A stretch of DNA of 64,000 bases from the human T2T-CHM13v2.0 reference genome, Homo sapiens, in assembly GCA_009914755.4 (NCBI GenBank), contig CP086569.2, positions 31,936,001 through 32,000,000 on the forward strand, written 5' to 3'. Made by a program: the position numbers and the translations under genes. The notes beneath the pieces are model-generated. The model was not told the origin of the DNA and ran no database searches. It saw nothing but the letters and a program-made list of their open reading frames with translations. Below, piece by piece: positions 1 through 64,000 of the stretch. The stretch's first letter is position 1; each line of letters starts with the position of its first letter.

Positions 1-1533
1 ATAATAATATACAGTGTCATATATATAATATATATAACCCATGTATAATATTGTTTTACATCCTGCATCTTATGTTATTTATATTGTATAAAATATAATA
101 ATTGATAATATATAAGTTTTATAATTATACAATATGACATATAGTATATATTATAATTTATGACATATATAATATATGTTATATATCATATATAGAATAT
201 ATTATACGGTTAATATACGTATTAAATATATATTATACATTATATATATTATATATAATATATCTGTTATATATAATACCCATTATGCATAATATATATA
301 TTATGTCTATGTTATATATAGTATAAAACAACATATAATAATATATAATTGTATATATAAAATGCGACATATAATATATATTATATTTTATAACATATGC
401 AATATATATTATATATAATACGTTGTATGTATAATACCTATATTAAATATATATTATATGACTATGTTATTAATTATATGTCACATGTGTTATATATAAT
501 ATATTTTACATAGAATATACCGGTTACATACAATATATACTATGTTACCTATAATGTATAATTTATTACATGTAAAATAAAGAATGCAATATATTATGTA
601 AAATTTATAACATACAATATGTGGAATGTGATATATATAGCATATAATATATGATATATGATATACAATATATGATATATAACATACAATATATGATTCC
701 TAATATATATGGTATACAATATATATTTTATGATATGTATTCTCTATGTTTTATATTCTGTTATATATAACTATTTGAAATTATATATAACTGTATAATA
801 TTTTATTTAAATATGTAATATAATATATATAACTATATAATATATTATATATAACTATATATTATGTTATATATACTTTTATAACATAATTTACATAAAA
901 TATCATAATATAATATATATTATATTATTTCATATTACATAATATATATTACATATCACCCAATATAACTAACATACATAATATTATAATATAGATTATA
1001 TTGTGTTATATTAAATATCATATATATCATGTATCATATATTCTATAATATATATTACACATTATATAATATGTATGTTGTCTATTATGTGATATATATA
1101 ACTATATATATAATTATATTTTTATACATATAACTAGATAAACATGTAATTCTACATATTTTCATTTATAATATGTAGAATTATATAATCATATATAATT
1201 ATTTATATTGTATAAAAAATTTTATTATTATATAAATTATAATATATAAAAATTATAATATGTACTACAAATATATATATTATATATCATATATGATATA
1301 GTACCTTTGTTATATATCATAATACATATAAATGTGTATTATGTTATCTATAATTATATAATTTCATATATAAGATGTATAATATGTATCATATATTATA
1401 TATGTTATGTAATATATATAGTATATATAAGATGACACAGGATAAATATTATATACTATGACATATAAAATATATGAGGTTATATGTTACATATAAGGCA
1501 TAGCACATAACATGTAATATATATCATATATAA
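1..1533. repeat. Partial unit U0 (only the AT-rich segment; window begins about 18 bp into it)
   Basis: Aligns to 2415-3946 of the next unit (same motifs: acagtgtcatatatataatatatataacc ... catatataa before the poly-T). Confidence 0.9.
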
Positions 1534-1831
1534 TTTTTTTTTAGACAGAATCTTGTCCTGTTGCACAGGGTGGGGTACAATGGCGCCATCTTTGCTCACT
1601 GCAGCTTCTGCCTCACGGGTCCAAGCGATTGTCCCTCCTCAGCCTCCCAGGTAGCTGGGACTACACCACACTGGGACTACACCAGCTGCCACCATGCCTA
1701 GCTAATTTTTTGGATTTTTAGTAGTGACAGCGTTTCACTGTATTGGCCAGGATGTTCTTGATCTCTTCACCTTGTGATCCCCTTGCCTTGGCCTCCAAAT
1801 TTGCTGGGATTACAGGCCTGAGCCAAGATCC
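1534..1831 (-). mobile_element. Alu SINE, antisense, old AluJ/AluS-like, 5'-truncated (copy in U1)
   Basis: The + strand reads T9-agacagaatcttgtcctgttgcacagggtgg...cctcagcctcccaggtagctgggactac...ctagctaattttttggatttttagtagtgacag...ttggccaggatg...ctccaaatttgctgggattacaggcctgagcca, which is the reverse complement of the Alu consensus. It has CAAGCGATT and GTTGCAG (S/J state), not the AluY CACGCCATT/GCTTGCAG state. It carries a tandem duplication of about 15 bp (ctgggactacaccacactgggactacacc). The 5' GGCCGGGCGCGG end is missing. Confidence 0.9.
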
Positions 1832-2395
1832 ATATTTTTTAAATGAAAAAAAATTTCAAAGGTACTCTGCTTGGTACAATAATCAAATGTATAAACTGAG
1901 GAATAAAACATAACCATGAAACCTACTTATAACTGCATATGGAAAATACAGAGGATAATTTTTTAAATAACATATTTTGAAAGCCTTAACTAGTAATTTG
2001 AAGAGTTGGCATTTGAAAGGCCAGTATGAATATACCTTCAAAGCAGCAACACAGGTTCCCCATGAGAAAAAGCAAACACAGGGAAAATAAAAACACAAAG
2101 GTTCAATCTCTTCTGACCTTTGAAAGACACAGCACAGACAGTGGTCCTTAGGACGAAGAGCAGGAGACCCCTAATTCCGTCACCATGGCGATAGGGCATA
2201 AACATTGCTGGGTGAGGGCACAATCCACATTGTGAGGTCCAACTGCTGCCAGGAAGACAGGAGTGCTTTTACATAGACCGAAAGGTCATTGAAGGCTCAG
2301 AGTTTTGTTTCAAGAACTGAATCCCAAGCCCACACGTTATTAGGCTGCGCTTCTTAAAACAAGTTATGAGATGGGAAAAAGGGCACCCAAAAACA
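1832..2395. repeat. Unique (non-Alu, non-low-complexity) segment of the unit, about 565 bp, moderate GC; recurs in every unit immediately 3' (+ strand) of the Alu
   Basis: catattttttaaatgaaaaaaaatttcaaaggtactctgcttgg...gacacagcacagacagtggtccttaggacgaagagcaggagacccctaattccgtcaccatggcgatagggc...gctgcgcttcttaaaacaagttatgagatgggaaaaagggcacc. Origin unrecognised; it may be an old TE/LTR fragment. It contains the recurrent spurious minus-strand 61/71-aa frames. Confidence 0.7.
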
Positions 2396-23270
<20,875 letters not shown>

Positions 23271-23568
23271 TTTTTTTTTAGACAGAATCTTGTCCTGTTG
23301 CACAGGGTGGGGTACAATGGCGCCATCTTTGCTCACTGCAAAATCTGCCTCACGGGTCCAAGCGATTGTCCTCCCTCAGCCTCCCAGGTAGCTGGGACTA
23401 CACCACACTGGGACTACACCAGCTGCCACCATGCCTAGCTAATTTTTTGGATTTTTAGTAGTGACAGCGTTTCACTGTATTGGCCAGGATGGTCTTGATC
23501 TCTTCACCTTGTGATCCCCTTGCCTTGGCCTCCAAATTTGCTGGGATTACAGGCCTGAGCCAAGATCC
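23271..23568 (-). mobile_element. Alu (same ancestral copy), U10
   Basis: As above. Confidence 0.9.
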
Positions 23569-25690
23569 ATATTTTTTAAATGAAAAAAAATTTCAAAGGT
23601 ACTCTGCTTGGTACAATAATCAAATGTATAAACTGAGGAATAAAACATAACCATGAAACCTACTTATAACTGCATATGGAAAATACAGAGGATAATTTTT
23701 TAAATAACATATTTTGAAAGCCTTAACTAGTAATTTGAAGAGTTGGCATTTGAAAGGCCAGTATGAATATACCTTCAAAGCAGCAACACAGGTTCCCCAT
23801 GAGAAAAAGCAAACACAGGGAAAATAAAAACACAAAGGTTCAATCTCTTCTGACCTTTGAAAGACACAGCACAGACAGTGGTCCTTAGGACGAAGAGCAG
23901 GAGACCCCTAATTCCGTCACCATGGCGATAGGGCATAAACATTGCTGGGTGAGGGCACAATCCACATTGTGAGGTCCAACTGCTGCCAGGAAGACAGGAG
24001 TGCTTTTACATAGACCGAAAGGTCATTGAAGGCTCAGAGTTTTGTTTCAAGAACTGAATCCCAAGCCCACACGTTATTAGGCTGCGCTTCTTAAAACAAG
24101 TTATGAGATGGGAAAAAGGGCACCCACAAACATACGTATACATTATGTATATAATAATATACAGTGTCATATATATAATATATATAACCTATGTATAATA
24201 TTGTTTTACATCCTGCATCTTATGTTATATATATTGTATAAAATATAATAATTGATAATATATAAGTTTTATATTTATACAATATGACATATAGTATATA
24301 TTATAATTTATGAGATATATAATATATGTTATATGTCATATATAGAATATATTATACGGTTAATATACGTATTAAATATAAATTATACATTATATATATT
24401 ATATATAATATATCTGTTATATATAATACCCATTATGCATAATATATATATTATGTCTATGTTATATATAGTATAAAACAACATAAAATAATATATAATT
24501 GTATATATAAAATGCGACATATAATATATATTATATTTTATAACATATGTAATATATATTATATATTATATATAATACGTTGTATGTATAATACCTATAT
24601 TAAATATATATTATATGACTATGTTATTAATTACATGTCACATGTGTTATATATTATATATTTTACATAGAATATACCGGTTACATACAATATACACTAT
24701 GTTACCTATAATGTATAATTTATTACATGTAAAATAAAGAATGCAATATATTATGTATAATTTATAATATACCATATGTGGAATGTGATATATATAACAT
24801 ATAATATATGATATATGATATACAGTATATGATATATAACATACAATATATGATTCCTAATATATATGGTATACAATATATATTTTATGATATGTATTCT
24901 ATATGTTTTATATTCTGTTATATATAACTATTTGAAATTATATATAACTGTATAATATTTTATGTAAATATGTAATATAATATATATAACTATATAATAT
25001 ATTATATATAACTATATATTATGTTATATATACTTTTATAACATAATTTACATAAAATATCATAATATAATATATATTATATTATTTCATATTACATAAT
25101 ATATATTACATATCTCCCAATATTACTAACATACATAATATTATAATATAGATTATATTGTGTTATATTAAATATCATATATATCATGTATCATATATTC
25201 TATAATATATATTACACATTATATAATATGTACGTTGTCTATTATGTGATATATATAACTCTATATATAATTATATTTTTATACATATAACTAGATAAAC
25301 ATGTAATTCTACATATTTTCATTTATAATATGTAGAATTATATAATCATATATAATTATTTATATTCTATAAAAAATTTTATCATTCTATCAATTATAAT
25401 ATATAAAAATTATAATATGTACTACAAATATATATATTATATATCATATATGATATAGTACCTTTGTTATATATCATAATACATATAAATGTGTATTATG
25501 TTATCTATAATTATATAATTTCATATATAAGATGTATAATATGTATCATATATTATATATGTTATGTAATATATATAGTATATATAAGATGACACAGGAT
25601 AAATATTATATACTATGACATATAAAATATATGAGGTTATATGTTACATATAAGGCATAGCACATAACATGTAATATATATCATATATAA
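23271..25690. repeat. Unit U10 (2420 bp), A-type; private ctgcaaaatctgcc
   Basis: Alu poly-T 23271 to next 25691. Confidence 0.9.
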
Positions 25691-52284
<26,594 letters not shown>

Positions 52285-52582
52285 TTTTTTTTTAGGCAGA
52301 GTCTTGTCCTGTTGCACAGGGTGGGGTACAATGGCGCCACCTTTGCTCACTGCAACATCTGCCTCACGGGTCCAAGCGATTGTCCTCCCTCAGCCTCCCA
52401 GGTAGCTGGGACTACACCACACTGGGACTACACCAGCTGCCACCATGCCTAGCTAATTTTTTGGATTTTAAGTAGTGACAGCGTTTCACTGTATTGGCCA
52501 GGATGGTCTTGATCTCTTCACCTTGTGATCCCCTTGCCTTGGCCTCCAAATTTGCTGGGATTACAGGCCTGAGCCAAGATCC
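52285..52582 (-). mobile_element. Alu (same ancestral copy, B-type), U22
   Basis: As above. Confidence 0.9.
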
Positions 52583-54697
52583 ATATTTTTTAAATGAAAA
52601 AAAATTTCAAAGGTACTCTGCTTGGTACAATAATCAAATGTATAAACTGAGGAATAAAACATAACCTTGAAACCTACTTATAACTGCATATGGAAAATAC
52701 ACAGGATACTTTTTTAAATAACGTATTTTGAAAGCCTTAACTAGTAATTTGAAGAGTTGGCATTTGAAAGGCCAGTATGAATATACCTTCAAAGCAGCAA
52801 CACAGTTTCCCCATGAGAAAAAGCAAACTCAGGGAAAATAAAACCACAAAGGTTCAATCTCTTCTGACCTTTGAAAGACACAGCACAGACAGTGGTCCTT
52901 AGGACGAAGAGCAGGAGACCCCTAATTCCGTCACCATGGCGATAGGGCATAAACATTGCTGGGTGAGGGCACAATCCACATTGTGAAGTCCAACTGCTGC
53001 CAGGAAGACAGGAGTGCTTTTACATAGACCGAAAGGTCATTGAAGGCTCAGAGTTTTGTTTCAAGAACTGAATCCCAAGCCCACAGGTTATAAGGCAGCG
53101 CTTCTTCAAACAAGTTATGAGATGGGAAAAAGGGCACCCACAAACATACGTATACATTATGTATATAATAATATACAGTATCATATATATAATATATATA
53201 ACCTATTTATAATATTGTTTTACATCCTGCATCTTATATTACATATAGTATAAAATATAATAATTGATAATATATAAGTTTTATATTTCTACAATATGAC
53301 ATATAGTATATATTATAATTTATGTCATATATATGTTATATATCATATATAGAATATATTATACGGTTAATATACGTATTAAATATAAATTATACATTAT
53401 ATATATTATATATAATATATCTGTTATATATAATACTCATTATGCATAATATATATATTATGTCTATGTTATATATAGTATAACACAACATATAATAATA
53501 TATAATTGTATATATAAAATGCGACATATTATATATATTATATTTTATGACATATGTAATATATATTATATATTATATATAATACGTTGTATGTATAATA
53601 CCTATATTAAATATATATTATATGACTACGTTATTAATTACATGTCACATATGTTATATATTATATATTTTACATAGAATATACCGGTTACATACAATAT
53701 ATACTCTGTTACCTATAATGTATAATTTATTACATGTAAAATAAATAATGCAATATATTATGTATAATTTATAATATACAATATGTGGAATGTGATATAT
53801 ATAACATATAATATATGATATATGTTATACAGTATATGATATATAACATACAATATATGATACCTAATATATATGGTATACAATATATATTTTATGATAT
53901 GTATTCTCTATGTTTTATATTCTGTTATATATAACTATTTGAAATTATATATAACTGTATAATATTTTATGTAAATATGTAATATAATATATATAACCAT
54001 ATAATATATTATATATAACTATATATTATGTTATATATACTTTTATTACATAATTTGCATAAAATATCATAATATAATATATATTATATTATTTCATATT
54101 ACATAATATATATTACATATCACCCAATATAAGTAACATACATAATATTATAATATAGATTATATTATGTTATATTAAATATCATATATATCATGTATCA
54201 TATATTCTATAATATATATTATAGATTATATAATATGTATGTTGTCTATTATGTGATATATATAACTATATATATATTTATATTATTATATATATAACTA
54301 GATAAACATGTAATTCTACATATTTTCATTTATAATATATAGAATTATATAATCATATATAATTATTTATATTCTATAAAAAATTATATCATTATATAAA
54401 TTATAATATATAAAAATTATAATATGTACTACAAATATATATATTATATATCATATATGATATAGTACCTTTGTTATATATCATGATACATATAAATGTG
54501 TATTATGTTATCTATAAGTATATAATTTCATATATAAGTTATATAATATGTATTATATATTATATATGTTATGTAATATATATAGTATATATAAGATGAC
54601 ACAGGATAAATATTATATACTATGACATATAAAATATATGAGGTTATATGTTACATATAAGGCATAGCACATAACATGTAATATATATCATCTATAA
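52285..54697. repeat. Unit U22 (2413 bp), B-type; unique segment near-copy of U20
   Basis: Alu poly-T 52285 to next 54698. Confidence 0.9.

Positions 54698-64000
<9,303 letters not shown>

What the first reader, a model, noticed from the sequence alone, without database searches (positions are those of the whole stretch)
1534..1831. One ancestral Alu insertion was captured and co-amplified; old Alu but young, homogenised array
All 26 Alu copies share the same orientation, the same 5' truncation, the same 15-bp internal duplication, the same 9-T tail and identical flanks. They are therefore copies of one insertion. They are not 26 insertions. Relative to the Alu consensus the element carries many CpG-to-TpG/CpA changes and S/J-type diagnostic bases. 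That indicates an old element that decayed before amplification. Within the A domain the copies differ from each other by only a few bases per 300. Amplification or homogenisation therefore greatly postdates the insertion. The Alu A and B Pol III boxes are mutated (tggctcaggcc; atcaagacc), so autonomous Alu transcription is unlikely.
Basis: partly seen in the sequence, partly recalled or inferred. Interest (0 to 1): 0.5.

Follow-up and report, generated by a model that had tools for sequence, protein, structure and literature searches.

The report
Alu subunit of human DYZ2/HSat1B satellite
The 298-bp Alu at 1534-1831 is the well-known Alu piece of the 2.4-kb human satellite HSat1B (DYZ2, the Y-chromosome long-arm heterochromatin repeat): one old Alu insertion copied along with the satellite unit, first described in 1984, so it is real but ordinary.

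Summary
Observation confirmed. The window holds 26.5 head-to-tail units of 2,411-2,422 bp. Each unit has three parts: a 298-bp antisense Alu, a 570-bp segment of 39% GC, and a ~1.55-kb segment of 86% AT. All 26 Alus share orientation, 5' end (about 12 nt missing), a ~15-nt internal duplication, a T9 tail (one T10) and both flanks.

The array's Alu differs from Alu consensus by about 18-19% (12% outside CpG). The copies differ from each other by 2.4% on average, and by 1.1% in units 1-14.

This is the published HSat1B/DYZ2 satellite. The window's figures match it: 24.3% GC, 1 CpG per 148 bp, a 2,420-bp consensus and 2,413-bp units. [quoted passage not shown] Hallast 2023 described a "5' truncated Alu".

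Fifty further Alu copies, from 43 of the 46 human-contaminant loci fetched, show the same junctions. No Alu-less copy was found.

The subfamily is AluSc8/Y-like, not J. Shared decay predates only the last common ancestor of today's copies, not necessarily the first amplification. The box changes alone do not show Pol III inactivity.

Already known; low interest.

The parts
1..64000 (+). Uninterrupted HSat1B/DYZ2-type tandem array, 26.5 units of 2,411-2,422 bp. Units 1-14 are homogeneous (0.5-0.9% from the window consensus). Units 15-25 are more diverged (1.2-2.2%).
1534..1831 (-). Alu subunit, copy 1 (the finding). It lies antisense on the + strand, lacks about 12 nt at its 5' end, and has a ~15-nt duplication in the right arm and an A9 tail (T9 on the + strand).
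1832..2401 (+). 570-bp non-AT segment (39% GC) of unit 1. This is the 'HSATI' / 'more GC-rich region' of the published unit. It ends in ACATACG.
   Evidence: papers
2402..3946 (+). AT-rich segment of unit 1 (86% AT), with many imperfect inverted repeats. All unit-length variation lies in this segment: indels of 2, 5 and 7 bp.
3947..4244 (-). Alu copy 2
6360..6657 (-). Alu copy 3
8782..9079 (-). Alu copy 4
11195..11492 (-). Alu copy 5
13606..13903 (-). Alu copy 6
16021..16318 (-). Alu copy 7
18436..18733 (-). Alu copy 8
20856..21153 (-). Alu copy 9
23271..23568 (-). Alu copy 10
25691..25988 (-). Alu copy 11
28111..28408 (-). Alu copy 12
30524..30821 (-). Alu copy 13
32944..33241 (-). Alu copy 14
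35365..35662 (-). Alu copy 15 (T10 tail; 12 differences from copy 1)
37785..38082 (-). Alu copy 16
40203..40500 (-). Alu copy 17
42618..42915 (-). Alu copy 18
45036..45330 (-). Alu copy 19 (3-bp deletion)
47451..47748 (-). Alu copy 20
49869..50166 (-). Alu copy 21
52285..52582 (-). Alu copy 22
54698..54995 (-). Alu copy 23
57116..57413 (-). Alu copy 24
59529..59826 (-). Alu copy 25
61947..62244 (-). Alu copy 26

Best explanation
The window is a stretch of human satellite HSat1B. This is classical satellite I of the 2.47-kb type, called DYZ2 on Yq12, with smaller arrays on acrocentric short arms. The feature at 1534-1831 is the Alu subunit of its composite 2.4-kb repeat unit.

Inferred history: one AluSc8/early-Y-type element retrotransposed once, next to or into AT-rich sequence and the 'HSATI' segment. 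The three parts together then became the unit of a tandem array. The array grew and is kept homogeneous by unequal exchange, replication slippage or gene conversion between units. The Alu is therefore copied as passive cargo.

Nearly all of its ~50 substitutions, its 5' truncation and its 15-nt duplication were already present in the last common ancestor of the copies seen today. A few further changes arose later and have spread to only some of the units.

Shown here: the single origin of all copies, the size of the two divergences, the local-duplication pattern, and the match to the published DYZ2 figures. Inferred: the amplification mechanism, the passive role of the Alu, and the chromosomal location (Y most likely).
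For: Single origin: 26 of 26 copies have the same orientation, end points, duplication and flanks.

Divergence: ~48 substitutions against the Alu consensus are fixed in all copies, and 2-3 are still polymorphic with the ancestral base. Divergence is 18-19% from consensus against 2.4% between copies.

Identity with DYZ2/HSat1B:
- The unit is tripartite.
- The unit consensus is 2,420 bp, and 2,413 bp is the commonest length (7 of 25 units).
- GC is 24.3%, and there is 1 CpG per 148 bp.
- The AT-rich part is 86.3% AT.
- ACATACG sits at the junction of the non-AT and AT-rich parts.
- Hallast et al. report a 2.4-kb unit of AT-rich repeat, 5' truncated Alu and HSATI, with 2,413 bp as the modal length, a 2,420-bp consensus, 24% GC and 1 CpG per 150 bp.
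- Rhie et al. report an AluY subunit 20% diverged, a region above 85% AT, and units more than 98% identical.

External copies: scans anchored on either flank returned 46 loci of human contamination. In 43 of them the Alu match spans more than 300 nt, giving 50 copies that show the same Alu and junctions. Of these, 16 copies are 100% identical over 418 bp to the window consensus. At least 42 of 46 substitutions are shared by all non-hybrid copies.

Local duplication: each unit's closest relative lies 1-4 units away, for example units 1/4 at 0.29% and 11/12 at 0.29%.

No sign of constraint on the Alu: it varies more between units (2.38%) than the neighbouring 570-bp segment does (1.32%).
Against: - No human reference genome was available, so the locus (Yq12 or an acrocentric arm) and even the species rest on indirect evidence.
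Subfamily calls therefore rest partly on RepeatMasker results quoted in papers, which themselves differ (AluSc8, AluY).
- The ~12% non-CpG divergence is higher than expected for an Sc/Y-age element. That needs either an elevated substitution rate or an already diverged source copy.
- No convincing target-site duplication can be recognised in the AT-rich flanks.
- Two external contigs, L004 and L007, carry a near-consensus left arm inside otherwise typical units. This explanation does not account for them.
Confidence: 0.95

Rival explanations
1. The 26 Alus are independent retrotransposition events into a preferred target inside each satellite unit.
For: None found. Hallast et al. do report a few additional, separate Alu insertions in Yq12 units, so new insertions into this satellite do occur.
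Against: All 26 copies have identical 5' truncation, duplication, tail length and flanks. About 48 shared substitutions would each have to recur independently.
Confidence: 0
2. The structure is the same, but the window comes from an HSat1B array on an acrocentric short arm (chromosomes 13, 14, 15, 21 or 22) or chromosome 10, not from Yq12.
For: HSat1B also occurs there. The second half of the window is more heterogeneous (up to 3.3% between units) than the '>98% identical' typical of the Y. Only 7 of 25 units have the Y-modal length of 2,413 bp.
Against: The Y holds by far most HSat1B: 14 Mb in T2T-Y. Units 1-14 fit the Y description. Hallast et al. describe more diverged units at the edges of Y arrays, which would explain the second half. 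The window consensus is identical to most contaminant contigs, which should sample the most abundant, Y-borne form.
Confidence: 0.15
3. The Alu subunit is not passive. It is kept because it acts in the array, for example as a TFIIIC/Pol III binding site, as a source of small RNA (mir-1268-like hairpin), or as the recombination substrate that sets the unit register.
For: It is present in every unit sampled, with no Alu-less unit among the 46 loci. The A box still fits the general Pol III consensus at 8 of 11 positions by my own comparison, and a B-box-like motif is retained. There is a sub-threshold mir-1268 match.
Against: Presence in every unit follows from co-amplification alone. The Alu accumulates differences between units faster than the adjacent segment (2.38% against 1.32%). 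Its CpGs are largely decayed. DYZ2 is hypermethylated. The mir-1268 score of 33.9 bits is far below the gathering score of 83.
Confidence: 0.04

Closest known systems
HSat1B / DYZ2 / 'HSATI' (classical human satellite I, 2.47-kb male-specific repeat; GenBank X00470.1; Frommer, Prosser & Vincent 1984, Nucleic Acids Res 12:2887)
   Same: All of the following match: unit length, tripartite order (AT-rich, 5'-truncated Alu, HSATI segment), GC content, CpG density, AT content, about 20% divergence of the Alu from consensus, and high unit-to-unit identity.
   Different: Nothing of substance. The second half of the window is somewhat more heterogeneous than the bulk of Yq12, as described for array edges.
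HSATI/Alu/AT-rich composites in the 22q11.2 low-copy repeats (Translocation Breakpoint Type A / PATRR22, AB261997.1) and in FAM230C on chromosome 13
   Same: They have the same three components in the same order and are reported as ~85% identical to X00470.1. Their Alu is annotated AluSc8 or AluYm1 (PMC5906017). This suggests the same ancestral capture event.
   Different: They are low-copy, dispersed by segmental duplication rather than in megabase arrays. [quoted passage not shown] I could not obtain these sequences to compare them directly.
Other satellites built around captured transposon pieces, such as 'Walu' on acrocentric arms (named) and the HSat3 arrays intermingled with Alu fragments
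   Same: A mobile-element fragment becomes part of a tandemly amplified unit.
   Different: According to Rhie et al., the Alu fragments associated with HSat3 show no local homogenisation and arose by independent seeding. In HSat1B the Alu is an integral, homogenised subunit.

Membership tests
HSat1B / DYZ2 satellite | Tandem unit of ~2.4 kb, with a modal length of 2,413 bp and a 2,420-bp consensus on Yq12 | tested here: met
   Periods are 2,411-2,422 bp. 2,413 bp is the commonest (7 of 25 units). The window consensus is 2,420 bp (Hallast et al.).
HSat1B / DYZ2 satellite | Tripartite unit: a region more than 85% AT, a 5'-truncated Alu, and a more GC-rich 'HSATI' segment | tested here: met
   The three parts are 1,552 bp at 86.3% AT, a 298-bp Alu lacking ~12 nt at its 5' end, and 570 bp at 38.9% GC (papers).
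HSat1B / DYZ2 satellite | Overall ~24% GC and about 1 CpG per 150 bp | tested here: met
   24.3% GC and 1 CpG per 148 bp, against the published 24% and 1 per 150 bp.
HSat1B / DYZ2 satellite | Alu subunit ~20% diverged from consensus, with units mostly more than 98% identical | tested here: met
   18-19% from the AluSc/Y consensus. Unit-to-unit divergence is 0.3-1.7% in units 1-14 and up to 3.3% in the rest.
HSat1B / DYZ2 satellite | Direct sequence identity to a reference DYZ2 consensus or X00470.1 | not testable with these tools
   No human reference sequence is held. Indirect support: the window consensus is 100% identical over 418 bp to 16 Alu copies in human-contaminant contigs of the kind Rhie et al. 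ascribe to HSat1B.
HSat1B / DYZ2 satellite | Location on Yq12, alternating with DYZ1 blocks | not testable with these tools
   The window contains no DYZ1 and no array edge. Chromosome assignment needs a reference genome.
Alu SINE (7SL-derived dimeric element) | Left and right monomers joined by an A-rich linker, a 3' poly(A), and internal A and B boxes in the left monomer | tested here: met
   A full-length alignment to the Alu consensus gives 81-82% identity without gaps. The linker is ACTAAAAATCCAAAAAATTAGC, the tail is A9, the A box is TGGCTCAGGCC and the B box is GATCAAGACC. The literature independently annotates the element as Alu.
   AluJo gives the worst fit: score 193 with 45 non-CpG mismatches, against 29 for AluSc and AluY. 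The left arm reads GATCACAAGGTGAAGAGATCAAGACCATCC, which is of Sc/Y type.
AluSc8 / early AluY | Sc/Y-diagnostic left arm (GATCACGAGGTCAGGAGATCGAGACCATCC) and a mixture of Sc and Y states in the right arm | tested here: inconclusive
   The best scores are AluSc (265) and AluY (258). Published RepeatMasker calls are AluSc8 and AluY. Dfam models were not available here.

The most novel reading that the evidence does not exclude
A minority of HSat1B units may have had the decayed left arm of their Alu replaced, by gene conversion from a younger genomic Alu, with a near-consensus left arm. That arm would carry an Alu-consensus A box and a largely restored left monomer. Two contaminant contigs, L004 and L007, show this pattern. 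If so, ectopic Alu-Alu conversion reaches into Yq12 or acrocentric heterochromatin and could create units competent for Pol III. The evidence does not exclude this. An assembly-consensus artefact from mixed Alu reads explains the pattern equally well.
Probability: 0.12. Interest if true: 0.35.

Novelty: already known. Interest (0 to 1): 0.08.

Why it matters
It matters little as a discovery. The 'one Alu per 2.47-kb repeat' structure has been in the literature since 1984. It was re-described at base resolution in the T2T-Y and 43-Y-chromosome papers.

It also warns against dating such an element from its divergence, because the subfamily says Sc/Y while the divergence looks J-like. The same composite unit underlies the AT-rich translocation hotspots of 22q11.2, which is the medically relevant relative.

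Tried and rejected
(1) Rfam scan of 1-5000 at E<=1 gave only sub-threshold mir-1268 hits on the Alu right arm. There was no SRP/7SL hit and no other RNA family.

(2) I looked for an Alu-less or differently truncated unit (a 'progenitor') by scanning with flank-only patterns. All 46 loci from genome contigs and metagenome contigs that reach the junction have the same Alu. The scans need exact 22-24-mers, so diverged autosomal relatives (~85% identity) would be missed.

(3) I first read L004 and L007 as an older HSat1B lineage showing stepwise Alu decay. I rejected this because the 590-bp HSATI part of L007 differs from the window at only 4 positions, while the Alu left arm differs at about 13 of 110.

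(4) Two viral-contig scans, one for the hybrid and one for the normal 5' junction, found nothing. That collection holds no HSat1B.

(5) Frommer 1984 (PMC318713) and Babcock 2007 (PMC1832092) are not held. Their content is cited only through titles and secondary summaries.

(6) The 2,413 versus 2,420 bp length difference in this window is a TATATAT indel inside the AT-rich part. It is not the ACATACG segment discussed by Hallast et al..

(7) Molecular-clock dating was considered and dropped. At Y-chromosome rates recalled from memory, 1-3% inter-unit divergence would imply 7-15 million years. That is older than the human-specific Y amplification, so the rate in this satellite must differ.

(8) Target-site duplication: the flanks AAAAAATATGGATCT (5') and TTATATATGATAT (3') are too AT-rich and low in complexity to judge.

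(9) No protein searches or structure predictions were run. Nothing here suggests coding sequence.

Full report
WHAT IS THERE

Reading 1-5000 and a blastn search of 1534-1831 against the window show a regular tandem array. There are 26 full-length copies of the 298-bp segment. All are on the same strand and 94.6-100% identical to copy 1, with E-values of 1e-133 to 1e-155. They are spaced 2,411-2,422 bp apart. Tandem Repeats Finder reports only the short periodicities inside the AT-rich parts, because its longest period is 500.

Each unit consists of three parts:
- the 298-bp segment;
- a 570-bp segment of 38.9% GC;
- a segment of about 1,552 bp that is 86.3% AT.

Nothing interrupts the array across the 64 kb.

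THE SEGMENT IS AN ALU ON THE MINUS STRAND

The reverse complement of the segment aligns end to end with Alu consensus sequences. Identity is 81-82% without gaps. The element has an A-rich linker and an A9 tail, and lacks the first ~12 nt of the consensus.

Independent support comes from two sources:
- Rfam's mir-1268 family, which I recall from memory as Alu-derived, matches the right arm on the minus strand. The score is 33.9 bits, below the gathering score of 83.
- Three papers annotate this element as Alu.

CHECK OF EACH STATEMENT IN THE FINDING

- Orientation, truncation and flanks are identical in all 26 copies. The 60-nt flanks differ at 0-3 positions.
- The tail is T9 in 25 copies and T10 in the copy at 35365.
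- One copy, at 45036, has a 3-bp deletion.
- The duplication is a 13-nt exact repeat at 16-nt spacing, a net gain of 15 nt. It is in all 26 copies in the alignment and letter-perfect in 23.
- TGGCTCAGGCC is present in 23 of 26 copies and ATCAAGACC in 21 of 26. Copy 1 itself reads ATCAAGAAC.
- Decay against consensus: 50-53 mismatches, and only 3-5 of 22-24 consensus CpGs are kept. Of the 20-24 mismatched bases at CpG positions, 15-18 are C>T or G>A. Non-CpG divergence is 12.4% against AluSc or AluY.
- Inter-copy divergence of the Alu averages 2.38% overall. It is 1.08% within units 1-14 and 3.32% within units 15 and 17-25.

The one descriptive error is 'J-type'. AluJo fits worst (score 193, 45 non-CpG mismatches). 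AluSc (265) and AluY (258) fit best, with 29 non-CpG mismatches each. The left arm reads GATCAC-AAGGTGAAGAGATCAAGACCATCC, which is the Sc/Y form.

ONE INSERTION OR MANY

Column by column, about 48 substitutions relative to the AluSc/Y consensus are fixed in all 26 copies, as are the truncation and the duplication. Only 2-3 derived sites still segregate with the ancestral base: column 264 (T in 7 copies, C in 19) and column 288 (C in 10, T in 15). Independent insertions cannot share ~48 private mutations. The copies descend from one element.

COPIES OUTSIDE THE WINDOW

To avoid selecting for the Alu itself, I scanned public collections with patterns taken only from the flanks.
- A 24-mer from the 570-bp segment, scanned against 185,579 prokaryotic genomes, returned 21 loci.
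- A 22-mer from the AT-rich side, scanned against metagenome contigs, returned 25 loci.

These are short contigs in unrelated bacterial assemblies and metagenomes. This is the human HSat1B contamination that Rhie et al. describe.

Every locus that reaches the junction carries the same Alu with the same end points. Across the 46 loci, 16 Alu copies are 100% identical over 418 bp to the window consensus. I then scored 50 external Alu copies, from the 43 loci whose match spans more than 300 nt, at the 46 positions where the window consensus differs from AluSc. Apart from two hybrids (see THE TWO ODD CONTIGS), the short-read copies carry 0-4 ancestral bases, or 7 in the chimera-like L002, recurring at positions 211, 258 and 282. 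No Alu-less unit was found. Exact-match scanning would, however, miss relatives of ~85% identity.

IDENTITY WITH A KNOWN SATELLITE

Hallast et al. (10.1101/2022.12.01.518658) describe DYZ2, also called HSat1B. [quoted passage not shown] They report 2,413 bp as the modal unit length, a 2,420-bp consensus, 24% GC, 1 CpG per 150 bp, hypermethylation, and more diverged units toward array edges.

Rhie et al. [quoted passage not shown]

The window gives matching values:
- 2,413 bp is the commonest unit length, and the consensus is 2,420 bp;
- GC is 24.3%, with 1 CpG per 148 bp;
- the AT-rich part is 86.3% AT;
- Alu divergence is 18-19%;
- there is a homogeneous half (0.5-0.9% from consensus) next to a more diverged half (1.2-2.2%).

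[quoted passage not shown] I have only the title, through, because the paper itself is not held. RepeatMasker of their sequence X00470.1 gives HSAT1, then AluSc8, then simple repeat (PMC5906017).

HOW IT MOST LIKELY WORKS

The Alu is cargo. In the window every unit's closest relative lies 1-4 units away, for example:
- units 1/4 at 0.29%, 2/5 at 0.62% and 6/7/9 at ~0.4%;
- units 11/12 at 0.29%, 22/24 at 1.8% and 23/25 at 1.3%.

This is the footprint of local duplications of one, two or three units. It fits the unequal-exchange, slippage or conversion mechanisms that both Y-chromosome papers infer.

All length variation lies in the AT-rich part, as indels of 2, 5 and 7 bp.

The Alu shows no sign of constraint. 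It differs between units more (2.38%) than the adjacent 570-bp segment does (1.32%).

The mechanism is inferred, not shown.

TIMING

Babcock et al. 2007, known to me only through the review PMC7767330, found the tripartite HSATI/AluSc/AT-rich unit on autosomes of non-human primates. They found it on the Y only in humans.

Two refinements are needed.
- Mutations shared by all copies predate the last common ancestor of today's copies, not necessarily the first amplification. The few sites where some units keep the ancestral base show that decay has continued inside the array.
- An Sc8/Y-type element with ~12% non-CpG divergence is more diverged than its subfamily's age suggests. This points to an elevated substitution rate in this satellite or to an already diverged source copy. 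Divergence-based dating is therefore unreliable here. This is inference.

POL III BOXES

The quoted strings are correct. My comparison uses the general type-2 consensus from established knowledge, not from a tool: A box TRGCNNAGTGG and B box GGTTCGANNCC.
- The A-box change (CAC>CAG) raises the fit from 7 to 8 of 11 positions.
- The B-box change (TCGA>TCAA) falls at a purine-tolerant position.

The loss of the first 12 nt and the hypermethylated heterochromatin are better reasons to expect silence. No expression data were examined.

THE TWO ODD CONTIGS

L007 is a 1,024-bp contig between N runs inside a Nostocoides japonicum scaffold. L004 comes from an Armatimonadota MAG. Both have normal HSat1B flanks, the same truncation point and the duplication. 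L007 also has a normal right arm apart from 3 ancestral bases.

In the left arm and linker (scored positions 31-133) they carry the Alu-consensus base at 13 (L007) and 17 (L004) of the 20 scored positions where every window copy is derived. Over all 46 scored positions the counts are 16 and 20. The derived bases they keep are almost all at CpG sites. The 590-bp HSATI part of L007 differs from the window at only 4 positions, so this is not a uniformly older lineage.

Two explanations remain: gene conversion by another Alu, or an assembly consensus built from mixed Alu reads. I could not decide between them.

VERDICT

The feature is real and was correctly read by the first stage. It is already known: the Alu subunit of HSat1B/DYZ2. 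Interest is low.

Noticed in passing
L007:5897-6920 (NZ_HF570958.1, Nostocoides japonicum T1-X7) and L004:244-1122 (WVXJ01000174.1, Armatimonadota MAG): These HSat1B units have a hybrid Alu. The flanks, truncation point and duplication are as in the window. The left arm and linker carry the Alu-consensus base at 13 (L007) and 17 (L004) of the 20 scored positions where all window copies are derived. This could be Alu-Alu gene conversion or an assembly artefact.
   Followed up: partly
L001-L021 (genome contigs) and L022-L046 (metagenome contigs): Human HSat1B sequence sits in 21 'bacterial' genome assemblies (Mycobacterium, Streptomyces, Bifidobacterium, Vibrio and others). One case is scaffolded into a 5.16-Mb chromosome-level record (NZ_HF570958.1). 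It also sits in 25 metagenome loci, including two ~54-kb long-read contigs (BNJT01002008.1 and BNJU01004413.1). This is database contamination, as Rhie et al. reported.
   Followed up: partly
window:1-64000 (boundary near 35000): The array has two domains. Units 1-14 (plus 16) are homogeneous, at 0.5-0.9% from consensus. Units 15 and 17-25 are at 1.2-2.2% and carry ancestral bases at two Alu sites. Each unit's nearest relative is 1-4 units away, so there is a patchwork of 1-3-unit duplications and no fixed higher-order repeat. This resembles the centre-to-edge gradient described for DYZ2 arrays.
   Followed up: yes
window:4833-6357 (AT-rich part of unit 2; the same in every unit): The AT-rich segment is dense in imperfect inverted repeats and short palindromes: 42 pairs of at least 25 nt, with arms up to 71 nt at 70-83% complementarity. 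It also has internal periodicities of ~22, 44, 53 and 58 bp, and of ~230 bp in some units. This recalls the palindromic AT-rich repeats of 22q11.2, which derive from the same composite. A few isolated CpGs (e.g. TACGGTTAATATACGT) are conserved across units.
   Followed up: partly
window:1638-1704 (-) and the equivalent position in every unit: There is a sub-threshold match to Rfam mir-1268 (33.9 bits; gathering score 83), a family I recall as Alu-derived. It spans the duplicated part of the right arm and is most likely just Alu homology.
   Followed up: no
L036:2636-5036 (OIIZ01000083.1): One HSat1B unit is only 89.5% identical to the window unit, while its immediate neighbour is 98.6% identical. 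Its Alu is still ~97% identical to the window consensus with flanks, so most of the divergence lies in the AT-rich part. It may come from an array edge or an acrocentric variant.
   Followed up: no
L020:360-816 (NZ_QVRA01000080.1): This HSat1B Alu has a 39-bp tandem duplication of the linker region (GCTGTCACTACTAAAAATCCAAAAAATTAGCTAGGCAT) next to a single N. It is probably an assembly or scaffolding artefact.
   Followed up: no
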